DNA from: Escherichia coli
Lineage (GTDB): Bacteria > Pseudomonadota > Gammaproteobacteria > Enterobacterales > Enterobacteriaceae
NCBI RefSeq assembly: GCF_001677475.2
Contig: NZ_CP015229.1
DNA: 64,000 bases
Direction: 5' to 3' (one strand)
In this document: positions 3,493 through 63,545 of the stretch, in pieces
Position numbering within the stretch: position 1 is the first letter of the stretch
How the letters are laid out: each line of letters begins with the position of its first letter
Notes under the pieces: model-generated
Database searches by the model: none
What the model saw: only the letters and a program-made list of their open reading frames with translations
What the model was told of the DNA's origin: nothing
Program-made: the position numbers and the translations under genes

Positions 3493-5643
3493 TTAGTGGT
3501 GCGAAGAGATCTTCACGCCGCCTTCCGGGATTGGAACGTACGGCGTTTCTTTGTCAGTACGTTTGTCGCTGTTACGCACCTTCAGCCAGGTTTTGAAACC
3601 GTAGAAGATGATGCTGTACACCACAATCAGGAACAGAATACTCAGGCCTGCGTTGGTGTAGTTGTTCACAACGATGTGGTTCATGTTGGCAATCTGCTGC
3701 GCCGTCAGGTCAGTACCGTTAGCAATCTTCTCTTTGTACTGGCTTGCCATGTAGAAGAAGCCTTCCATCTGCGGGTTGGTGCTGAACAGTTTCAGACCCA
3801 GCGCCCAGGTGGTGCAGATAAGCAGCCATACCGCCGGAACAACAGTTACCCAGATGTATTGGGTGCGCTTCATCTTAATCAGCACAACGGTGCCCAGAAC
3901 CAGCGCTACGGCTGCCAGCATCTGGTTGGAGATACCGAACAGCGGCCACAGGCTCTTAACGCCGCCCAGCGGATCGACCACGCCCTGATACAGCAGGTAG
4001 CCCCACAGACCCACACAGCCCGCTGTACCGATGATACCGGCAACCAGAGAGTCGGTTTTTTTCAGGAACGGGATGAAGTTACCCAGCAGGTCTTGCAGCA
4101 TAAAGCGGCCAGAACGGGTACCGGCATCCAGCGCGGTCAGGATGAACAGGGCTTCGAACAGGATACCGAAGTGATACCAGAAGCCCATGTCAGCCATCGG
4201 CAGCACTTTGTGGAATACATGAGCGATACCTACCGCCAGCGTCGGCGCACCACCTGCACGGTTCAGGACAGAAGGCTCACCAATGTCTTTCGCGGTTTGC
4301 AGGATCTGCTCTGGCGAAATCACGAAGCCCCAGGAGCTGACAGTCGCCGCCGCGTGTGCGGTAACGTCTTTCAGCTGCGCCATGATGATTGGCGCGTTCT
4401 CGCCACCCATTTCATGCAGGTTAGGCATGGTGATGCCGAGGCCAGCAGGCGGGGTGTTCATCGCGAAGTAAAGACCCGGTTCGATGATGGACGCAGCAAC
4501 CAGCGCCATAATCGCCACGAAGGACTCCATCAGCATTGCGCCGTAGCCGATGAAACGCGCATCGGTTTCGTTAGCCAGCAGTTTCGGCGTCGTACCGGAA
4601 GAGATCAGCGCGTGGAAGCCAGATACCGCACCACAGGCGATGGTGATGAACAGGAACGGGAACAGAGCGCCTTTCCACAGCGGGCCAGTACCATCAATGT
4701 ACTGAGTCATCGCAGGCATTTTCAGTTCCGGGTTCAGCACCACGATACCCAGCGCCAGGCCGACGATAACGCCGATTTTCAGGAAGGTTGCCAGATAGTC
4801 GCGCGGTGCGAGGATCAGCCACACCGGCAGCAGTGCGGAAACAAACGCATAGCCAATCAGCGCGAAGGTAATGGTGGTGTCTTTAAAGGTCAGTGCCGGA
4901 CCCCAGTACGGATCGTGAGCAATCACGCCACCGAAGTAGATAGAGGCAACCAGCAGCACGATACCAATGACAGAGACTTCACCTACACGCCCCGGACGAA
5001 TAAAGCGCATGTAGATACCCATAAACAGCGCAATCGGTACGGTTGAGCAAACGGTGAAGACACCCCACGGACTTTCGGCCAGGGCTTTAACCACAATCAG
5101 CGCCAGGACGGCAAGGATGATGATCATGATTAAGAAACAGCCAAACAGCGCGATAGTCCCCGGTACTGGTCCCATCTCTTCTTTGATCATCTCACCGAGA
5201 GATGCGCCGTTACGGCGAGAGGAGATAAACAGCACCATAAAGTCCTGTACCGCACCGGCCAGCACTACCCCCGCCAGCAGCCACAGCGTGCCAGGCAGGT
5301 AGCCCATCTGCGCGGCGAGCACCGGACCAACCAGCGGACCGGCACCGGCGATAGCGGCGAAGTGGTGACCAAACAACACGTAACGGTTGGTCGGAACGTA
5401 GTTCAGACCGTCGTTGTTAATAACCGCAGGCGTCGCGCGCGTGGGGTCGAGTTTCATCACCTTCTGGGCGATGTACAGACTGTAGTAGCGATACGCCACC
5501 AGATACACCGACACAGAGGCGACCACGATCCACAGGGCGCTGACGTGCTCCCCCCGACGTAATGCAACTACCGCGAGGCAGAATGCACCGATGATTCCGA
5601 GAATCACCCAGGGTATGTGCTTGAATAGTTTTTTCGTATCCAT
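3493..5643 (-). CDS. btsT: Pyruvate/proton symporter BtsT (CstA family; YjiY)
   Basis: ORF track 3493..5658, 721 aa polytopic protein; start likely at [16 protein letters not shown]. Confidence 0.9.
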
Positions 5644-57480: not shown

Positions 57481-57987
57481 ATGGCCTTTTTATTGAATAA
57501 AAGTGATATGGCCTCCTCCATCGGTATCTCTGTTCAGGCATTTGATAAATGGGGCGTTCCTCCTGTCGAGCGTCGGGGGAGGGAAGTTTTTTATGACGTT
57601 AAAACTGTACTGGAGATAGATCGCGAGCGGCGACAACACAATCATAGAACACCTGATGACGGGGGCGATCTGGAGGAAAGGCTGCTTCGGGCCAGAGCTG
57701 AACTGACAGAAGAACAGGCCGTAGCTCAAAAACTTAAAAATCAGGTAACCGAAGGTAAGCTCATCGATTCAGACTTCTGCGTTTTCGCCCTCAGCAAGCT
57801 GGCGATGGCATTGTCCAGTACGCTTGATTCTATTCCGTTATCCATGCAGCGACAGTTCCCGGATTTAACGCCACGTCATCTTGACCATCTGAAAACCCTT
57901 ATTGCGAAGGGCGCAAATCAGTGTGCGCGGGCAGGGGATAAATTACCGGATTTGCTGGATGAATATATCAGAGCAACAACTGAATAA
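57481..57987 (+). CDS. nu1: Terminase small subunit (Nu1-like)
   Basis: ORF track 57376..57987; ATG with GGAGAGGAG RBS; VFYDVKTVLE...FCVFALSKLAMALSSTLDSIPLSMQRQFPDLTPRHLDHLK close to lambda Nu1. Confidence 0.85.
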   Translation: MAFLLNKSDMASSIGISVQAFDKWGVPPVERRGREVFYDVKTVLEIDRERRQHNHRTPDDGGDLEERLLRARAELTEEQAVAQKLKNQVTEGKLIDSDFCVFALSKLAMALSSTLDSIPLSMQRQFPDLTPRHLDHLKTLIAKGANQCARAGDKLPDLLDEYIRATTE

Positions 57988-59887
57988 TCTGATGGCTGCC
58001 GTTTCGGTTGCGCTGCAGCCTCTGGTCAGGGTTGTACCGATGACGGCAGTTGAATGGGCTGACCAGTATTATTATCTGCCGAAAGAATCCTCATACGGTG
58101 ACGGCGAATGGAAAACGCTGCCGTTCCAGATCGCCATCATGAACAGTATGGGGAATGATCAGATCCGCACTGTTAATCTGATTAAATCTGCCCGTGTTGG
58201 CTATACAAAGATGTTGCTGGGGGTGGTCGGGTATTTTATTGAGCATAAATCCCGAAACAGTCTGCTTTTTCAGCCCACGGATTCTGCCGCTGAAGATTTT
58301 ATGAAGTCTCACGTGGAGACGACGATTAGGGACGTGCCATGCCTGAAAGACCTTTCCCCATGGCTGGGTCGTAAACATCGTGATAATACCCTCACGCTGA
58401 AACGCTTTTCATCGGGCGTCGGTTTCTGGTGCCTGGGCGGCGCTGCCGCCAAAAACTACCGTGAAAAATCCGTGGATGTGGTCTGCTATGACGAACTTTC
58501 CTCGTTCGAACCGGATGTTGAAAAAGAGGGTTCGCCAACCCTGCTGGGGGATAAACGTATTGAGGGCTCTGTATGGCCAAAATCCATTCGCGGCTCGACG
58601 CCTAAAATCAAAGGCTCCTGCCAGATCGAAAAAGCCGCTAACGAGTCGGCACATTTCATGCGTTTTTATGTGCCCTGTCCGCACTGTGGGGGGGAGCAGT
58701 ATCTGAAATTTGGCGATGATGCCTCGCCTTTCGGTCTTAAGTGGGAGAAGAATAAGCCAGAAAGTGTTTTCTACCTTTGTGAGCATCATGGCTGTGTGAT
58801 CCATCAGTCTGAGCTTGACCAGAGTAACGGGCGGTGGATCTGTGAAAACACGGGCATGTGGACCCGTGACGGCCTGATGTTTTTCAGCGCCCGGGGTGAT
58901 GAAATTCCGCCGCCGCGCTCCATCACTTTCCATATCTGGACGGCGTACAGTCCGTTCACCACCTGGGTACAGATTGTCTATGACTGGCTGGATGCACTGA
59001 AAGATCCCAACGGCCTGAAAACCTTTGTGAACACCACGCTGGGCGAGACCTACGAAGAGGCCGTGGGCGAAAAACTCGATCACCAGGTACTGATGGATAA
59101 GGTTGTGCGTTACACGGCGGCGGTGCCTGCCCGGGTGGTTTATCTGACGGCCGGCATTGACTCGCAGCGAAACCGTTTTGAGATGTATGTCTGGGGATGG
59201 GCTCCGGGAGAGGAAGCCTTTCTGGTGGATAAAATCATCATTATGGGGCGTCCCGATGAGGAAGAGACGCTGTTACGTGTGGATGCGGCGATCAACAAAA
59301 AATACCGCCATGCAGACGGAACCGAAATGACCATTTCCCGTGTCTGCTGGGACATCGGGGGGATCGATGGCGAAATCGTTTATCAGAGGTCAAAAAAACA
59401 CGGTGTTTTCCGGGTGCTGCCGGTAAAAGGCGCATCTGTCTATGGCAAGCCGGTGATCACCATGCCAAAAACCCGCAATCAGCGGGGCGTGTATCTGTGT
59501 GAAGTGGGGACGGACACCGCAAAAGAAATTCTCTATGCCCGTATGAGAGCCGATCCCACGCCTGCGGATGAAGCCACGTCGTATGCCATCCGTTTTCCTG
59601 ATGATCCGGAGATTTTTTCGCAGACAGAGGCGCAGCAACTGGTGGCGGAAGAGCTTGTGGAGAAGTGGGAAAAAGGAAAGATGCGTCTGCTGTGGGATAA
59701 CAAAAAGCGGCGTAACGAAGCGCTGGACTGCCTGGTGTATGCCTACGCGGCATTACGTGTGTCCGTGCAACGTTGGCAGCTTGATCTGGCTGTACTGGCA
59801 AAATCCCGGGAAGAAGAGACGACCCGGCCAACCCTTAAAGAACTGGCAGCGAAGCTGTCCGGAGGAGTGAATGGTTACAGTCGCTGA
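57959..59887 (+). CDS. A: Terminase large subunit (gpA-like)
   Basis: ORF track 57902..59887; start MNISEQQLNNL; strong similarity to lambda gpA as recalled (AVEWADQYYYLPKESSYGDGEWKTLPFQ, SPFTTWVQIV). Confidence 0.9.
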   Translation: MNISEQQLNNLMAAVSVALQPLVRVVPMTAVEWADQYYYLPKESSYGDGEWKTLPFQIAIMNSMGNDQIRTVNLIKSARVGYTKMLLGVVGYFIEHKSRNSLLFQPTDSAAEDFMKSHVETTIRDVPCLKDLSPWLGRKHRDNTLTLKRFSSGVGFWCLGGAAAKNYREKSVDVVCYDELSSFEPDVEKEGSPTLLGDKRIEGSVWPKSIRGSTPKIKGSCQIEKAANESAHFMRFYVPCPHCGGEQYLKFGDDASPFGLKWEKNKPESVFYLCEHHGCVIHQSELDQSNGRWICENTGMWTRDGLMFFSARGDEIPPPRSITFHIWTAYSPFTTWVQIVYDWLDALKDPNGLKTFVNTTLGETYEEAVGEKLDHQVLMDKVVRYTAAVPARVVYLTAGIDSQRNRFEMYVWGWAPGEEAFLVDKIIIMGRPDEEETLLRVDAAINKKYRHADGTEMTISRVCWDIGGIDGEIVYQRSKKHGVFRVLPVKGASVYGKPVITMPKTRNQRGVYLCEVGTDTAKEILYARMRADPTPADEATSYAIRFPDDPEIFSQTEAQQLVAEELVEKWEKGKMRLLWDNKKRRNEALDCLVYAYAALRVSVQRWQLDLAVLAKSREEETTRPTLKELAAKLSGGVNGYSR

Positions 59888-60077
59888 ACTGCAGGCGCTG
59901 CGTCAGGCGCGCCTTGATTTATTAACCGGTAAACGGGTGGTGTCTGTCCAGAAAGATGGTCGCAGAATTGAATATACGGCGGCTTCTCTGGATGAGCTTA
60001 ACCGGGCGATCAATGATGCGGAGTCGGTACTGGGGACAACCCGACGTCGCCGTCGTCCGCTGGGAGTGAGGTTATGA
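59871..60077 (+). CDS. W: Head-tail joining protein (gpW-like)
   Basis: ORF track 68 aa; LTGKRVVSVQKDGRRIEYTAASLDELNRAINDAE. Confidence 0.8.
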   Translation: MVTVAELQALRQARLDLLTGKRVVSVQKDGRRIEYTAASLDELNRAINDAESVLGTTRRRRRPLGVRL

Positions 60078-61666
60078 AACGAACGCCTGTCCTGATTGAT
60101 GTGAACGGTGTTCCGCTTCGTGAGAGTCTCAGCTACAACGGGGGCGGCGCAGGATTTGGCGGGCAAATGGCGGAGTGGTTGCCACCGGCGCAGAGTGCCG
60201 ATGCGGCCCTGCTGCCCGCGTTGCGTCTGGGGAATGCCCGGGCAGATGATCTGGTGCGCAATAACGGAATAGCGGCTAATGCGGTTGCCCTGCATAAGGA
60301 TCACATTGTCGGGCATATGTTTCTGATCAGCTACCGTCCGAACTGGCGCTGGCTGGGGATGCGGGAGACCGCAGCAAAAAGCTTTGTCGATGAGGTGGAG
60401 GCGTCCTGGTCGGAATACGCCGAAGGGATGTTTGGCGAGATCGACGTGGAAGGAAAACGCACGTTCACGGAATTTATCCGTGAAGGTGTGGGCGTTCATG
60501 CGTTTAACGGCGAAATCTTTGTGCAGCCGGTCTGGGATACGGAAACCACGCAGTTATTCCGTACGCGTTTTAAAGCTGTGAGTCCGAAACGGGTGGACAC
60601 GCCTGGACACGGTATGGGGAACCGTTTTCTGCGGGCCGGTGTGGAGGTCGATCGATATGGCCGTGCCGTCGCGTACCATATCTGTGAGGATGATTTTCCG
60701 TTCTCTGGTAGTGGACGATGGGAACGGATCCCGCGTGAACTTCCCACCGGGCGTCCGGCCATGCTGCATATTTTCGAGCCGGTGGAGGACGGGCAGACCC
60801 GTGGGGCTAATCAGTTTTACAGCGTCATGGAACGGCTGAAGATGCTCGATTCCCTGCAGGCAACACAGCTTCAGTCGGCCATAGTGAAGGCGATGTATGC
60901 AGCGACGATTGAAAGTGAACTTGATACCGAAAAGGCCTTTGAATATATCGCCGGCGCGCCACAGGAGCAGAAGGATAATCCGCTTATTAATATTCTGGAG
61001 AAGTTCTCCAGCTGGTATGACACGAATAACGTGACACTGGGCGGAGTCAAAATTCCGCACCTTTTCCCTGGTGATGATCTGAAACTACAGACTGCGCAGG
61101 ATTCAGACAATGGATTTTCTGCACTTGAACAGGCGCTGCTGCGGTATATCGCCGCCGGTCTTGGCGTTTCCTACGAACAGTTGTCCCGTGATTACTCGAA
61201 GGTCAGTTACTCAAGTGCCCGCGCCTCCGCCAATGAGTCGTGGCGCTATTTTATGGGGCGGCGAAAATTTATTGCGGCCCGGCTGGCCACGCAGATGTTT
61301 TCCTGCTGGCTGGAAGAGGCACTTCTTCGGGGGATTATTCGTCCGCCACGGGCACGTTTTGATTTTTATCAGGCGCGATCAGCCTGGTCACGGGCAGAGT
61401 GGATTGGTGCCGGAAGAATGGCCATTGACGGGCTCAAGGAAGTCCAGGAATCAGTGATGCGCATTGAGGCCGGACTGAGCACGTATGAGAAAGAGCTGGC
61501 GCTAATGGGCGAGGATTATCAGGACATTTTCCGCCAGCAGGTCAGGGAATCTGCAGAGCGGCAAAAAGCCGGACTCTCACGTCCGGTGTGGATATCGCAG
61601 GCGTATCAGCAGCAGATAGCGGAGAGTCGCAGGCCGGAAGAGGAGACAACACCACGTGAGACGTAA
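60074..61666 (+). CDS. B: Portal protein (gpB-like)
   Basis: ORF track 530 aa; position after W and before protease; lambda-like. Confidence 0.85.
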   Translation: MKRTPVLIDVNGVPLRESLSYNGGGAGFGGQMAEWLPPAQSADAALLPALRLGNARADDLVRNNGIAANAVALHKDHIVGHMFLISYRPNWRWLGMRETAAKSFVDEVEASWSEYAEGMFGEIDVEGKRTFTEFIREGVGVHAFNGEIFVQPVWDTETTQLFRTRFKAVSPKRVDTPGHGMGNRFLRAGVEVDRYGRAVAYHICEDDFPFSGSGRWERIPRELPTGRPAMLHIFEPVEDGQTRGANQFYSVMERLKMLDSLQATQLQSAIVKAMYAATIESELDTEKAFEYIAGAPQEQKDNPLINILEKFSSWYDTNNVTLGGVKIPHLFPGDDLKLQTAQDSDNGFSALEQALLRYIAAGLGVSYEQLSRDYSKVSYSSARASANESWRYFMGRRKFIAARLATQMFSCWLEEALLRGIIRPPRARFDFYQARSAWSRAEWIGAGRMAIDGLKEVQESVMRIEAGLSTYEKELALMGEDYQDIFRQQVRESAERQKAGLSRPVWISQAYQQQIAESRRPEEETTPRET

Positions 61667-63161
61667 TCTTTCACACATTATTGCCGCAGCATTCAATGAA
61701 CCGCTGCTTCTGGAGCCCGCCTATGCGCGGGTTTTCTTTTGCGCGCTCGGGCGCGAGATGGGGGCAGCAAGTCTTTCGGTACCACAACAACAGGTACAGC
61801 TTGATGCTCCCGGAATGCTGGCTGAAACGGACGAGTATATGGCCGGAGGTAAACGACCGGCCCGTGTTTACCGGGTGGTGAACGGTATTGCTGTACTGCC
61901 GGTGACCGGCACGCTGGTGCACCGGCTGGGTGGTATGCGGCCATTTTCCGGAATGACAGGCTATGACGGCATTGTCGCCTGTCTTCAGCAGGCAATGGCG
62001 GATAGCCAGGTGCGGGGCGTACTGCTGGACATTGACAGTCCGGGCGGGCAGGCCGCCGGCGCGTTTGACTGCGCTGACATGATTTACCGCCTCCGTCAGC
62101 AGAAGCCGGTCTGGGCACTGTGCAATGACACGGCCTGTTCTGCAGCCATGCTGCTGGCGTCGGCCTGCTCCCGACGGCTGGTTACCCAGACATCCCGTAT
62201 CGGCTCCATTGGCGTGATGATGAGCCATGTCAGCTATGCCGGTCATCTGGCGCAGGCCGGTGTGGATATCACGCTGATTTACTCAGGGGCGCACAAGGTG
62301 GATGGCAATCAGTTTGAAGCGTTGCCGGCAGAGGTTCGCCAGGACATGCAGCAGCGGATTGATGCGGCGCGCCGGATGTTTGCCGAAAAAGTGGCGATGT
62401 ATACCGGTCTGTCTGTTGATGCCATCACGGGAACAGAGGCTGCCGTTTTTGAAGGTCAGTCCGGCATTGAGGCCGGGCTGGCGGATGAATTAATCAATGC
62501 GTCGGATGCCATCAGTGTGATGGCCACGGCGCTGAACAGTAATGTCAGAGGAGGCACTATGCCGCAATTAACTGCAACGGAAGCCGCCGCGCAGGAGAAC
62601 CAGCGAGTGATGGGGAGCCTGACATGCCAGGAAGCGAAAGGACGTGAACAGCTTGCCACGATGCTGGCAGGACAACAGGGCATGAGCGTTGAACAGGCCC
62701 GGGCGATTCTGGCCGCGGCGGCACCGCAGCAGCCGGTGGCATCCACGCAGAGTGAAGCCGATCGCATTATGGCGTGTGAAGAAGCGAACGGTCGTGAACA
62801 ACTGGCGGCAACGCTGGCGGCGATGCCGGAGATGACGGTGGAAAAAGCCCGCCCGATCCTGGCTGCTTCACCGCAGGCGGATGCCGGACCATCACTCCGT
62901 GATCAGATCATGGCACTGGATGAGGCAAAAGGGGCTGAGGCGCAGGCTGAACAGCTGGCTGCCTGCCCGGGAATGACAGTGGAGAGCGCCCGGGCTGTGC
63001 TGGCTGCGGGATCAGGTAAGGCAGAACCGGTCTCTGCATCCACAACCGCCATGTTTGAACATTTCATGGCGAACCATTCACCGGCAGCGGTACAGGGTGG
63101 CGTGGCACAGACGTCAGCAGACGGTGATGCGGACGTGAAAATGCTCATGGCCATGCCATGA
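61656..63161 (+). CDS. C: Head maturation protease / scaffold (gpC with Nu3-like C-terminal region; S49 family)
   Basis: ORF track 501 aa; S49 peptidase core; C-terminal third has three tandem ~40-aa repeats. Confidence 0.8.
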   Translation: MRRNLSHIIAAAFNEPLLLEPAYARVFFCALGREMGAASLSVPQQQVQLDAPGMLAETDEYMAGGKRPARVYRVVNGIAVLPVTGTLVHRLGGMRPFSGMTGYDGIVACLQQAMADSQVRGVLLDIDSPGGQAAGAFDCADMIYRLRQQKPVWALCNDTACSAAMLLASACSRRLVTQTSRIGSIGVMMSHVSYAGHLAQAGVDITLIYSGAHKVDGNQFEALPAEVRQDMQQRIDAARRMFAEKVAMYTGLSVDAITGTEAAVFEGQSGIEAGLADELINASDAISVMATALNSNVRGGTMPQLTATEAAAQENQRVMGSLTCQEAKGREQLATMLAGQQGMSVEQARAILAAAAPQQPVASTQSEADRIMACEEANGREQLAATLAAMPEMTVEKARPILAASPQADAGPSLRDQIMALDEAKGAEAQAEQLAACPGMTVESARAVLAAGSGKAEPVSASTTAMFEHFMANHSPAAVQGGVAQTSADGDADVKMLMAMP

Positions 63162-63197: not shown

Positions 63198-63545
63198 ATG
63201 GTGACGAAAACCATCACTGAACAGCGTGCGGAAGTACGTATTTTTGCCGGTAATGATCCGGCTCATACCGCCACAGGCAGCAGCGGGATTTCTCAGGCAA
63301 CACCGGCACTGACGCCCCTGATGCTGGATGAGTCTACCGGGAAACTGGTGGTCTGGGACGGACAGAAAGCCGGTAGTGCGGCTGGCATACTGGTACTGCC
63401 GCTTGAAGGCACAGAGACGGTGCTGACGTATTACAAGTCGGGAACCTTTGCGACGGAGGCAATCCACTGGCCTGAAAGTGTGGATGAACACAAAAAGGCC
63501 AACGCCTTTGCCGGCAGTGCCCTGAGTCACGCGGCGCTGCCGTAA
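63198..63545 (+). CDS. D: Head decoration protein (gpD-like)
   Basis: ORF track 115 aa; MVTKTITEQRAEVRIFAGNDPAHTATGSSG... Confidence 0.85.
   Translation: MVTKTITEQRAEVRIFAGNDPAHTATGSSGISQATPALTPLMLDESTGKLVVWDGQKAGSAAGILVLPLEGTETVLTYYKSGTFATEAIHWPESVDEHKKANAFAGSALSHAALP

What the first reader, a model, noticed from the sequence alone, without database searches (positions are those of the whole stretch)
62560..63010. Three tandem ~40-aa repeats in the scaffold-like C-terminal part of gpC
The gpC-like protease gene encodes three consecutive repeats (consensus roughly E-A-x-G-R-E-Q-L-A-x-x-L-A...M-x-V-E-x-A-R-x-I-L-A-A), making it ~60 aa longer than lambda gpC as I recall. Repeat expansion in the scaffolding region could alter head assembly, or these could be recombination-prone sequences.
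Basis: seen in the sequence. Interest (0 to 1): 0.3.

Follow-up and report, generated by a model that had tools for sequence, protein, structure and literature searches.

The report
Phage 21 scaffold "Tri box" repeats
The three repeats are real, but they are the "Tri boxes" already annotated in coliphage 21's head protease/scaffold gene: an old, conserved triplication of a small helical module that lambda carries once. It is not a recent or unstable expansion.

Summary
Observation confirmed. The 501-aa S49 protease gene (61656-63161, +) encodes three tandem repeats with periods of 50 and 47 aa. They share 51-61% aa identity (z = 11-16 against shuffles).

The gene is 99.6% identical to phage 21 gene 5/6. 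GenBank M81255.1 already marks the repeats as "Tri1 box / Tri box / Tri3 box, function unknown". They lie in the nested in-frame scaffold gene (62559-63161, AGGAGG just upstream), the Nu3 analogue.

Lambda, N15, phi80 and an Aeromonas phage carry one unit. Phage 21-type and Gifsy-1 carry three, and one E. coli prophage carries four. A profile of the unit finds 1,072 protein clusters. Among the top hits that have an S49 domain, 65 have one copy, one has two and one has three.

The triplication is old. Matching repeats in phage 21 and Gifsy-1 are 61-82% identical, against 42-59% between repeats within one phage. It is under purifying selection (dN/dS 0.12-0.24).

At DNA level the repeats are 57-67% identical and share no exact word longer than 9 nt. 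TRF finds nothing, so they are not a substrate for homologous recombination. Rare microhomology deletions do exist.

AlphaFold predicts each unit as a small three-helix module (pLDDT 85-90). No PDB, Pfam or NCBIfam match was found.

Likely role (inferred): a protein-protein interaction module of the scaffold and protease inside the procapsid, made trivalent here. Low novelty.

The parts
61641..61646 (+). Putative ribosome-binding site (GAGGAG) of the protease gene
   Evidence: Sequence. Annotated as a putative RBS of gene 5 at the matching position of phage 21 M81255.1.
61656..63161 (+). Prohead protease/scaffold fusion gene (phage 21 gene 5, lambda C analogue), 501 aa. Its GTG start overlaps the end of the portal gene by 11 nt.
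   Evidence: ORF list. 99.6% nt identity to phage 21 gene 5. 58% aa identity to lambda gpC.
62091..62534 (+). Peptidase S49 (SppA-like) domain, aa 146-293. Ser162 (62139-62141) aligns with a serine of B. subtilis SppA, which I take from memory to be the nucleophile.
   Evidence: Pfam PF01343, E = 5e-35. PDB 3rst/4kwb SppA, E ~ 5e-16, aligned over aa 77-290. NCBIfam SppA_dom.
62549..62554 (+). Internal Shine-Dalgarno sequence AGGAGG, embedded in the Arg-Gly-Gly codons 4 nt upstream of the nested ATG
   Evidence: Sequence. Annotated RBS of gene 6 in both phage 21 records. The GGAGG/AAGGAG + ATG arrangement is conserved at the matching position in Gifsy-1, the 4-repeat allele, lambda (Met309) and N15 gp6.
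62559..63161 (+). Nested in-frame scaffold gene (phage 21 gene 6, Nu3 analogue): 200 aa, 20.5 kDa, pI 4.6, 24% Ala
   Evidence: Annotated CDS in M81255.1 and OL657228.1. Independent gene calls starting at MPQLTA/MPELTA occur in many database entries. PHROG 8399 'head scaffolding protein' matches with 3 stretches. Composition.
62595..62729 (+). Repeat 1 (aa 314-358). GenBank 'Tri1 box' maps to 62626-62729. It is the counterpart of lambda's single unit and shares the 3-aa MG(I/S)L insertion.
62754..62876 (+). Repeat 2 (aa 367-407). GenBank 'Tri box' maps to 62766-62876.
   Evidence: 82% identical to Gifsy-1 repeat 2.
62895..63017 (+). Repeat 3 (aa 414-454). GenBank 'Tri3 box' maps to 62907-63020. 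It has Ala instead of the Arg of the G-R-E motif, which is conserved in 90% or more of sequences.
   Evidence: AlphaFold pLDDT is 85-90 over this unit.
63018..63158 (+). C-terminal tail (aa 455-501). It has one predicted amphipathic helix (aa 461-474, TTAMFEHFMANHSP, 63036-63077) and ends in LMAMP. A tail of 38-71 aa follows the last unit in nearly all homologues.

Best explanation
Shown: this is the head protease/scaffold gene pair of a phage 21-type prophage (gene 5 with nested gene 6, the analogues of lambda C and Nu3). The three repeats are its known 'Tri boxes'.

Each repeat is one copy of a conserved module of about 41-45 aa. The module is predicted to fold on its own as three short helices: helix 1, an E-A-K-G-R-E loop, helix 2, a P-G-M-T turn, then helix 3. 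Most S49-type prohead proteases have one copy, placed between the protease domain and a C-terminal tail of about 40-70 aa. The phage 21/Gifsy-1 lineage fixed three copies long ago and keeps all three under purifying selection.

Inferred: the module and tail are shared by the protease (translated from 61656) and by the presumably more abundant scaffold (translated from the internal SD/ATG at 62559). The module is therefore most likely a protein-protein interaction element. It would let both proteins co-assemble on the inside of the growing capsid shell, either by binding the major capsid protein or portal or by linking scaffold molecules to each other. Three beads on flexible linkers would make the 21-type scaffold trivalent and about 70 aa longer than the lambda Nu3 product inferred to start at Met309 (131 aa). 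The protease would then degrade the scaffold before DNA packaging, as established for lambda.
For: Identity
- 99.6% nt identity to phage 21.
- Tri1/Tri/Tri3 repeat_region features and nested gene 6 are annotated in M81255.1.
- Gene order is portal, protease, decoration protein, major capsid protein.

The unit is a real conserved module
- A 41-position profile finds 1,072 cluster representatives at E <= 1e-3 among 1.84 billion proteins.
- Among the top 150, the S49-containing proteins have 1 copy (65), 2 copies (1) or 3 copies (1). A tail nearly always follows the last unit.
- Ten positions are conserved in 90% or more of 91 diverse sequences.
- AlphaFold with that alignment gives pLDDT 85-90 for the unit as three helices.
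- The whole gp6 model shows three such modules with low pTM (0.26), that is, with no fixed arrangement relative to each other.

Old and constrained
- Matching repeats in this window and Gifsy-1 are 73, 82 and 61% identical, against 42-59% for non-matching repeats.
- dN/dS of the three repeats is 0.12-0.24, similar to the protease part.
- 58 of 60 sampled E. coli genome hits are exactly 603 nt.

Nested start: SD + ATG is conserved in Gifsy-1, lambda, N15 and the 4-copy allele.

Functional context for lambda Nu3: interactions with B, C, E and itself are listed in PMC3224144.

gp6 is acidic (pI 4.6), which argues against DNA binding.
Against: - No binding partner of the unit was tested, and none is known to me.
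- By analogy with P22 gp8, P2 gpO and the HK97 protease (my own knowledge), the shell-binding element could be the extreme C-terminal tail. The units would then serve another role.
- Repeat 3 of the phage 21 type lacks the near-invariant Arg, so the three copies may not be equivalent.
- Alleles with a partly or wholly deleted repeat 2 exist in complete genomes. If those prophages are viable, three copies are not strictly required.
Confidence: 0.7

Rival explanations
1. The units are mainly a spacer or length-setting element. The extreme C-terminal tail (amphipathic helix plus LMAMP end) is what binds the capsid protein, and the repeats only set the reach and volume of the scaffold core.
For: - A tail of 38-71 aa follows the last unit in nearly every homologue.
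- Lambda has a 36-aa low-complexity linker that phage 21 lacks, so the extra units partly make up for length.
- C-terminal shell-binding peptides are the rule in P22, P2 gpO and the HK97 protease (my own knowledge).
- Alleles lacking part or all of repeat 2 exist.
Against: - A pure spacer would not keep ten positions conserved in 90% or more of sequences across about 1,000 clusters.
- It would not have a confident fold (pLDDT 85-90).
- It would not show dN/dS of 0.12-0.24.
- The tail is much less conserved than the unit.
Confidence: 0.2
2. The units are docking or cleavage elements for the S49 protease domain itself. They would mark scaffold and protease for timed degradation rather than drive assembly.
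For: - The unit is found with S49 proteases: as fusions, or in small proteins many of which look like nested gene calls or fragments.
- Its most conserved feature is a charged surface loop, E-A-K-G-R-E. That would fit a conserved partner such as the protease better than the very diverse capsid proteins.
- C is reported to degrade Nu3 (PMC3224144).
Against: - No cleavage-site data were available here.
- A folded three-helix module is a poor protease substrate.
- The idea does not explain why the scaffold would otherwise lack any conserved assembly domain.
Confidence: 0.08
3. One reading: a recent, recombination-prone repeat expansion that changes copy number readily and thereby alters head assembly.
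For: - Copy number differs between lineages, from 1 to 4.
- Rare alleles carry a 57-nt deletion, a hybrid of repeats 1 and 2, or no repeat 2.
Against: - TRF finds no DNA repeat.
- Units are 57-67% identical in DNA, with exact shared words of 9 nt or less.
- Matching repeats are closer between E. coli and Salmonella phages than neighbouring repeats within one phage.
- 58 of 60 sampled genome hits have the same length.
- The one deletion examined is bounded by an 8-nt imperfect microhomology, not by repeat homology.
Confidence: 0.03
4. The region has a DNA-level role, for example the CII-binding sites annotated on the minus strand inside the scaffold gene of phage 21 (OL657228.1).
For: Two TTGYN6TTGY matches on the minus strand, at 62564-62577 and 62798-62811.
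Against: - The pattern occurs 23 times in the window, against 16.5 +/- 3.4 expected by chance.
- Only one of the two sites lies in a repeat.
- Conservation of the repeats is at the amino-acid level, with synonymous sites saturated against Gifsy-1.
Confidence: 0.02

Closest known systems
Coliphage 21 genes 5 and 6 with 'Tri1 box / Tri box / Tri3 box' (GenBank M81255.1; also OL657228.1)
   Same: Essentially the same gene: 99.6% nt identity, same GTG start, same nested start and RBS, and the same three repeats at the same positions.
   Different: Four amino-acid differences over the 501 aa (two in the protease part, two in the scaffold part), among them Ser321 here vs Ile in repeat 1 and Ala373 here vs Val in repeat 2.
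Lambda gpC protease / gpNu3 scaffold (nested genes)
   Same: 58% aa identity. Same S49 domain, same gene order, and a conserved internal SD + ATG (lambda Met309). The same unit is present, followed by a tail.
   Different: Lambda has one unit, not three. It has a 36-aa low-complexity linker before the unit and a different tail ending (DLLNTPV vs LMAMP). The RefSeq Nu3 start (aa 239) differs from the conserved SD/ATG position.
Single-unit relatives: N15 gp5/gp6, phi80 and Aeromonas phage phiARM81ld proteases
   Same: Same architecture of S49 domain, linker, one unit and tail. N15 gp6 is annotated as starting at the matching internal start.
   Different: One unit; 440-447 aa.
P22 scaffolding protein gp8 C-terminal helix-turn-helix coat-binding domain (also phi29 gp7)
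   Same: Works-like analogy only: a small helical element near the C terminus of an acidic, largely flexible scaffold protein that mediates co-assembly with the coat protein (my own knowledge; PMC11922011).
   Different: No detectable sequence or fold relationship. Here the module has three helices, is repeated, is followed by a further tail, and is shared with a protease.
P2 gpO protease-scaffold fusion and the HK97 gp4 protease C-terminal targeting peptide
   Same: The protease is carried into the procapsid by a C-terminal non-catalytic region (my own knowledge).
   Different: Different protease families and unrelated C-terminal sequences. No repeats.

Membership tests
Lambda C/Nu3-type (phage 21 gene 5/6-type) S49 prohead protease with nested scaffold | Peptidase S49 (SppA-like) domain | tested here: met
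   PF01343, E = 5e-35, 121 bits against a cut-off of 24.9. SppA structures 3rst/4kwb, E ~ 5e-16.
Lambda C/Nu3-type (phage 21 gene 5/6-type) S49 prohead protease with nested scaffold | Nucleophile serine conserved | tested here: met
   Ser162 is invariant between this protein and lambda gpC. It aligns with the Ser of the AAS-GGY segment of B. subtilis SppA. That this is the catalytic Ser is from my own knowledge.
Lambda C/Nu3-type (phage 21 gene 5/6-type) S49 prohead protease with nested scaffold | In-frame internal start with its own Shine-Dalgarno, giving a scaffold identical to the protease's C-terminal part | tested here: met
   AGGAGG at 62549-62554 and ATG at 62559. Annotated in phage 21. 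Conserved in Gifsy-1, lambda, N15 and the 4-copy allele. Actual use of the start was not tested.
Lambda C/Nu3-type (phage 21 gene 5/6-type) S49 prohead protease with nested scaffold | Position between the portal gene and the decoration and major capsid genes | tested here: met
   ORFs 60074-61666 (portal), 63198-63545 (decoration) and 63604 onward (capsid). Same order in phage 21, Gifsy-1, lambda, N15 and phi80.
Lambda C/Nu3-type (phage 21 gene 5/6-type) S49 prohead protease with nested scaffold | Conserved C-terminal unit (EAxGRE...PGMTVExAxxIL) followed by a tail | tested here: met
   Three units with E = 1e-22 to 1e-26 against the unit profile, against one in lambda. A 47-aa tail follows.
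Lambda C/Nu3-type (phage 21 gene 5/6-type) S49 prohead protease with nested scaffold | Protease activity, scaffold function and removal before DNA packaging | not testable with these tools
   Needs genetics or biochemistry. Inferred from lambda (PMC3224144).
Phage 21 'Tri box' triplication | Three units in the order and position annotated in M81255.1 | tested here: met
   Tri1, Tri and Tri3 map to window 62626-62729, 62766-62876 and 62907-63020 and coincide with R1-R3.
Helix-hairpin-helix motif (Pfam PF00633) | Score above the Pfam gathering threshold; DNA-binding character | tested here: not met
   13 bits against a cut-off of 24, E = 0.096, and only in repeat 3. gp6 is acidic, pI 4.6.
P22-type helix-turn-helix coat-binding scaffold domain | Sequence or fold similarity to a solved scaffold domain | tested here: not met
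DNA tandem repeat / homologous-recombination hot spot | Detectable DNA-level tandem repeat with long identical stretches | tested here: not met
   TRF gave 0 rows at minimum score 30. Units are 57-67% identical in nt. Longest shared exact word is 8-9 nt.

The most novel reading that the evidence does not exclude
The Tri-box unit is a widespread small three-helix domain that no curated domain library (Pfam, NCBIfam) describes. It has at least 1,072 clusters at 50% identity. It could be the general module by which S49-type prohead proteases and their nested scaffolds enter and organise the procapsid, with copy number (1 to 4) setting how many contacts each scaffold molecule can make. The phage 21 and lambda pair, with 3 and 1 copies in otherwise homologous T=7 heads, would then be a ready-made natural experiment on scaffold valency.
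Probability: 0.35. Interest if true: 0.4.

Novelty: already known. Interest (0 to 1): 0.15.

Why it matters
For this window it matters little. The feature is a known, annotated property of a classic lambdoid phage, and the same scaffold gene is present in about a third of complete E. coli genomes (1,869 of 5,426).

Three modest points come out of the check:
- The function of the Tri boxes is still recorded as unknown. The unit turns out to be a well-conserved, confidently predicted module, usually single-copy, that no domain database covers. It is a reasonable candidate for a new domain family and for a simple deletion or binding experiment in phage 21 against lambda.
- Natural alleles with 1, 2, about 2.5, 3 and 4 copies exist and could be tested for viability.
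- The conserved SD/ATG supports the shorter Nu3 start in lambda (Met309, 131 aa, about 13.4 kDa) over the RefSeq start at aa 239.

Tried and rejected
- **DNA-level repeat detection.** TRF at minimum score 30 found nothing. The repeat finder with seed 6 found only short imperfect matches. The repeat is a protein-level feature.
- **Pfam and NCBIfam.** No family covers the repeats. The weak HHH hit (13 bits, E = 0.096) was rejected as below threshold and inconsistent with an acidic protein.
- **Profile against PDB sequences.** A 24-residue chain, 9hqv_Un, contains 'AKGREALAEK' and looked like a possible modelled scaffold peptide. 9HQV is cited in apicomplexan mitoribosome papers and the chain has no assigned identity, so I treated this as a chance match.
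- **CII-binding-site annotations** inside the gene occur at chance frequency.
- **Literature.** The Smith & Feiss phage 21 head-gene paper and the Medina et al. gpNu3 paper are not in the held library. What the original authors said about the Tri boxes could not be read, so only the GenBank feature table is cited. The value '13.4 kDa for gpNu3' is from my memory; it is consistent.
- **First protein homology search.** It returned mostly fragments. It was useful for finding variants but not for frequencies.
Full report
**1. What is at the locus**

The finding lies in the ORF 61656-63161 (+ strand, GTG start, 501 aa). Its start overlaps the end of a 530-aa portal-like ORF (60074-61666). A 115-aa decoration-protein ORF (63198-63545) and the start of a capsid gene (63604 onward) follow it.

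Pfam places a Peptidase_S49 domain at aa 146-293 (E = 5e-35). The best solved relatives are SppA signal-peptide peptidases, aligned over aa 77-290 (E ~ 5e-16). Nothing in Pfam or NCBIfam covers the last 200 residues.

**2. Check of the observation**

A sliding-window self-comparison of the protein gives its three best off-diagonal matches at offsets of 50, 47 and 97 residues. The scores are 73, 64 and 62, against 28 for the best unrelated pair.

The core units are:
- R1: aa 314-358 (window 62595-62729)
- R2: aa 367-407 (window 62754-62876)
- R3: aa 414-454 (window 62895-63017)

| Pair | Identical residues | z against 2,000 shuffles | Aligned-codon nt identity |
|---|---|---|---|
| R1/R2 | 25 of 45 | 16.4 | 67% |
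| R2/R3 | 22 of 36 | 16.3 | 63% |
| R1/R3 | 18 of 35 | 10.9 | 57% |

At DNA level the repeat is not detectable:
- TRF returns nothing.
- The seed-based finder returns only 12-25 nt imperfect matches.
- The longest exact word shared by two units is 8-9 nt.

**3. Identity: already annotated in phage 21**

The gene is 99.6% identical over its whole length to gene 5 of coliphage 21, in both M81255.1 and OL657228.1. The feature table of M81255.1 gives:
- gene 5, with the same start;
- a nested gene 6 with its own putative RBS;
- three repeat_region features named 'Tri1 box', 'Tri box' and 'Tri3 box', each 'function unknown; putative'.

Mapped to the window, these are 62626-62729, 62766-62876 and 62907-63020. 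The nested gene is 62559-63161 (200 aa), preceded by AGGAGG at 62549-62554.

**4. The nested start is conserved**

An SD-like sequence 4-6 nt upstream of an in-frame ATG sits at the matching position in all of these:
- the window and other E. coli alleles (AGGAGG or GGAGG);
- Gifsy-1 (GGAGG);
- the 4-repeat allele (AAGGAG);
- lambda (GGAGG before Met309);
- N15, whose gp6 is annotated as a 'head scaffolding protein; internal in-frame translational start'.

The RefSeq lambda Nu3 start (aa 239) has no such sequence. Translation from lambda Met309 gives 131 aa of about 13.4 kDa. The window's gp6 is 200 aa, 20.5 kDa, pI 4.6 and 24% Ala.

**5. Copy number in relatives**

| Phage or allele | Protease length | Units | Source |
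|---|---|---|---|
| Lambda gpC | 439 aa | 1 (aa 357-400) | |
| phi80 | 447 aa | 1 | |
| N15 | 447 aa | 1 | |
| Aeromonas phage phiARM81ld | 440 aa | 1 | |
| This window / phage 21 type | 501 aa | 3 | |
| Gifsy-1 | 498 aa | 3 | |
| E. coli strain 503829 | 538 aa | 4 | |

- Lambda's unit is preceded by a 36-aa low-complexity linker that the window gene lacks.
- In the phage collection, 20 records carry the full three-unit scaffold: phage 21, ev017, 4A7, 1W, 3W, D2, the PhiR5/R12/R57 series and Gifsy-1. About 93 show a single matching segment.
- The 4-unit allele sits in the same head-gene order. Its units 2-4 are 76-80% identical in DNA, with exact words up to 23 nt, which suggests a younger expansion.
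- A 41-position profile of the unit (alignment A2) was searched against 1.84 billion cluster representatives. It finds 1,072 proteins at E <= 1e-3 and 100 at E <= 1e-10.
- Among the best 150, the proteins that also match the S49 domain have one full unit in 65 cases, two in 1 and three in 1. The last unit is followed by a tail of 38-71 aa in all but two.
- One unit is therefore the norm, and three is a lineage-specific state.

**6. Age and constraint of the triplication**

Each unit is more similar to its counterpart in Gifsy-1 than to any non-matching unit of either phage. R1 is 73%, R2 82% and R3 61% identical, against 42-59%. Synonymous sites between the two phages are saturated (dS ~ 1.7-2). 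The triplication therefore predates the split of these E. coli and Salmonella head modules.

R1 is the counterpart of lambda's unit. It shares the 3-residue MGIL insertion, and R1 units from all multi-copy proteins group together at 68-76%.

dN/dS over the three units is 0.12 against Gifsy-1 and 0.22-0.24 against divergent E. coli alleles. The protease part gives 0.06-0.19.

In complete E. coli genomes, 1,869 of 5,426 carry the 603-nt scaffold gene. In 58 of 60 evenly spaced rows of the ranking, the match is exactly 603 nt.

**7. Variants**

Rare length variants exist:
- A 57-nt in-frame deletion inside R2 is found in strain 98198 and in protein clusters P0009/P0011. It removes window 62808-62864 and is bounded by CTGGCGGC / CTGGCTGC.
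- A two-unit allele has a hybrid of R1 and R2 (P0022).
- One allele lacks R2 entirely (P0018), and another lacks most of it (P0016).

These look like microhomology-mediated deletions. They are not products of homologous exchange between units, for which the window's DNA offers no substrate. In my recollection, about 20-25 nt of identity is needed for efficient RecA-dependent exchange.

**8. Structure**

AlphaFold on gp6 with 11 homologues gives three similar helical modules, each with three short helices, plus one tail helix. pLDDT is 75-81 in R2 and R3, and pTM is 0.26, so the modules have no fixed mutual arrangement.

With a 91-sequence alignment of 'unit + tail' (A4), the R3 unit reaches pLDDT 85-90. 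Its helices are at model residues 6-11, 20-27 and 34-44. The tail helix (gp5 aa 461-474) reaches about 70-74.

Positions conserved in 90% or more of sequences are:
- a hydrophobic residue in helix 1;
- E-A-x-G-R in the first loop;
- A/L-A in helix 2;
- A and L in helix 3.

The tail helix (xxFExFM; in lambda ALDRLM) resembles helix 1 of the unit (DRIMA, DQIMA). MAFFT aligns lambda's ALDRLM either with helix 1 of R2 or with the phage 21 tail helix. This hints at how the duplication may have arisen.

**9. Mechanism**

*Shown.* The gene is a shared-C-terminus protease/scaffold pair. It contains a conserved, independently predicted three-helix module in three old, constrained copies, followed by a less conserved tail.

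*Established for lambda* (PMC3224144). Nu3 is the scaffold. It is required for portal incorporation, self-associates, interacts with C and (by two-hybrid) with E, and is removed by C.

*Inferred.* The unit and the tail are the only conserved elements of the scaffold, so they must carry its contacts. I take the unit to be a protein-protein interaction module for co-assembly inside the shell, made trivalent in the 21/Gifsy lineage. Which partner it binds (capsid protein, portal, other scaffold molecules or the protease domain) is open. The main rival is that the tail binds the shell, as in other phages, while the units act as connectors or spacers. The acidic pI argues against DNA binding.

**10. 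Comparison and verdict**

The feature is a member of the lambda C/Nu3-type family: all sequence-testable features were met. More precisely, it is phage 21 gene 5/6 with its annotated Tri boxes.

It is not related, by any test run here, to the P22-type coat-binding helix-turn-helix or to HhH motifs. The resemblance to those is functional analogy only.

The suggestion of a notable or unstable expansion is not supported.

Novelty: already known. Residual interest lies in the unit being an uncurated, widespread domain of unknown function with natural copy-number variants.

Noticed in passing
window 62616-62618 (codon AGC, aa 321 of the protease, repeat 1): This allele has Ser where phage 21, other E. 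coli alleles, Gifsy-1, lambda and nearly all homologues have Ile. The position is the hydrophobic residue of helix 1, conserved in 90% or more of sequences. E. coli strain DA61218 is 100% identical over the 603-nt scaffold gene and so shares the change. It may be a mildly damaging substitution in a resident prophage.
   Followed up: partly
window 62895-63017 (repeat 3): Repeat 3 is a local mosaic patch among E. coli alleles. dS against strains STEC17-190 and AF10 is 0.8-0.9 here, against 0-0.18 in repeats 1 and 2 and 0.07 in the protease part. The alternative form reads AFPGMTVE(S/A)ARD(M/I)L(A/S)SS(S/P)D. This suggests an exchanged segment with a boundary inside the gene.
   Followed up: partly
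L003 (lambda NC_001416.1), record position about 5342 vs the annotated nu3 start at 5132: The RefSeq lambda nu3 CDS starts at aa 239 of gpC, with no Shine-Dalgarno sequence. A conserved GGAGG + ATG lies at Met309, matching the phage 21, N15 and Gifsy-1 nested starts, and gives a 131-aa (about 13.4 kDa) product. A note in the phage 434 record (OL657226.1) begins 'real Nu3 start ...' but was cut off in the output.
   Followed up: partly
window 62564-62577 and 62798-62811 (minus strand): OL657228.1 annotates two 'CII binding sites' (TTGYN6TTGY) inside the scaffold gene. The pattern occurs 23 times in this window, against 16.5 +/- 3.4 expected, so these are probably chance matches.
   Followed up: yes
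L008 (E. coli 98198, NZ_CP173570.1); corresponds to window 62808-62864: A natural 57-nt in-frame deletion removes helices 2-3 of repeat 2. It is bounded by CTGGCGGC / CTGGCTGC microhomology. The gene is annotated as an intact 482-aa S49 peptidase.
   Followed up: yes
L009:1481-3097 (E. coli 503829, NZ_CP025869.1): A 538-aa S49 protease with four units sits in the same head-gene order. Units 2-4 are much more alike (76-80% nt, exact words up to 23 nt), which suggests a separate, younger expansion.
   Followed up: yes
window 61656-61666: The protease GTG start overlaps the last 11 nt of the portal ORF. Likewise the small ORF at 59871-60077 overlaps the end of the terminase ORF, and its own end overlaps the portal start at 60074. 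This tight packing is typical of translationally coupled head genes.
   Followed up: no
window 57902-59887: The mechanical ORF for the large terminase subunit starts at a TTG (661 aa). An in-frame Met (MNISEQQL...) 19 codons downstream looks like the more plausible start.
   Followed up: no
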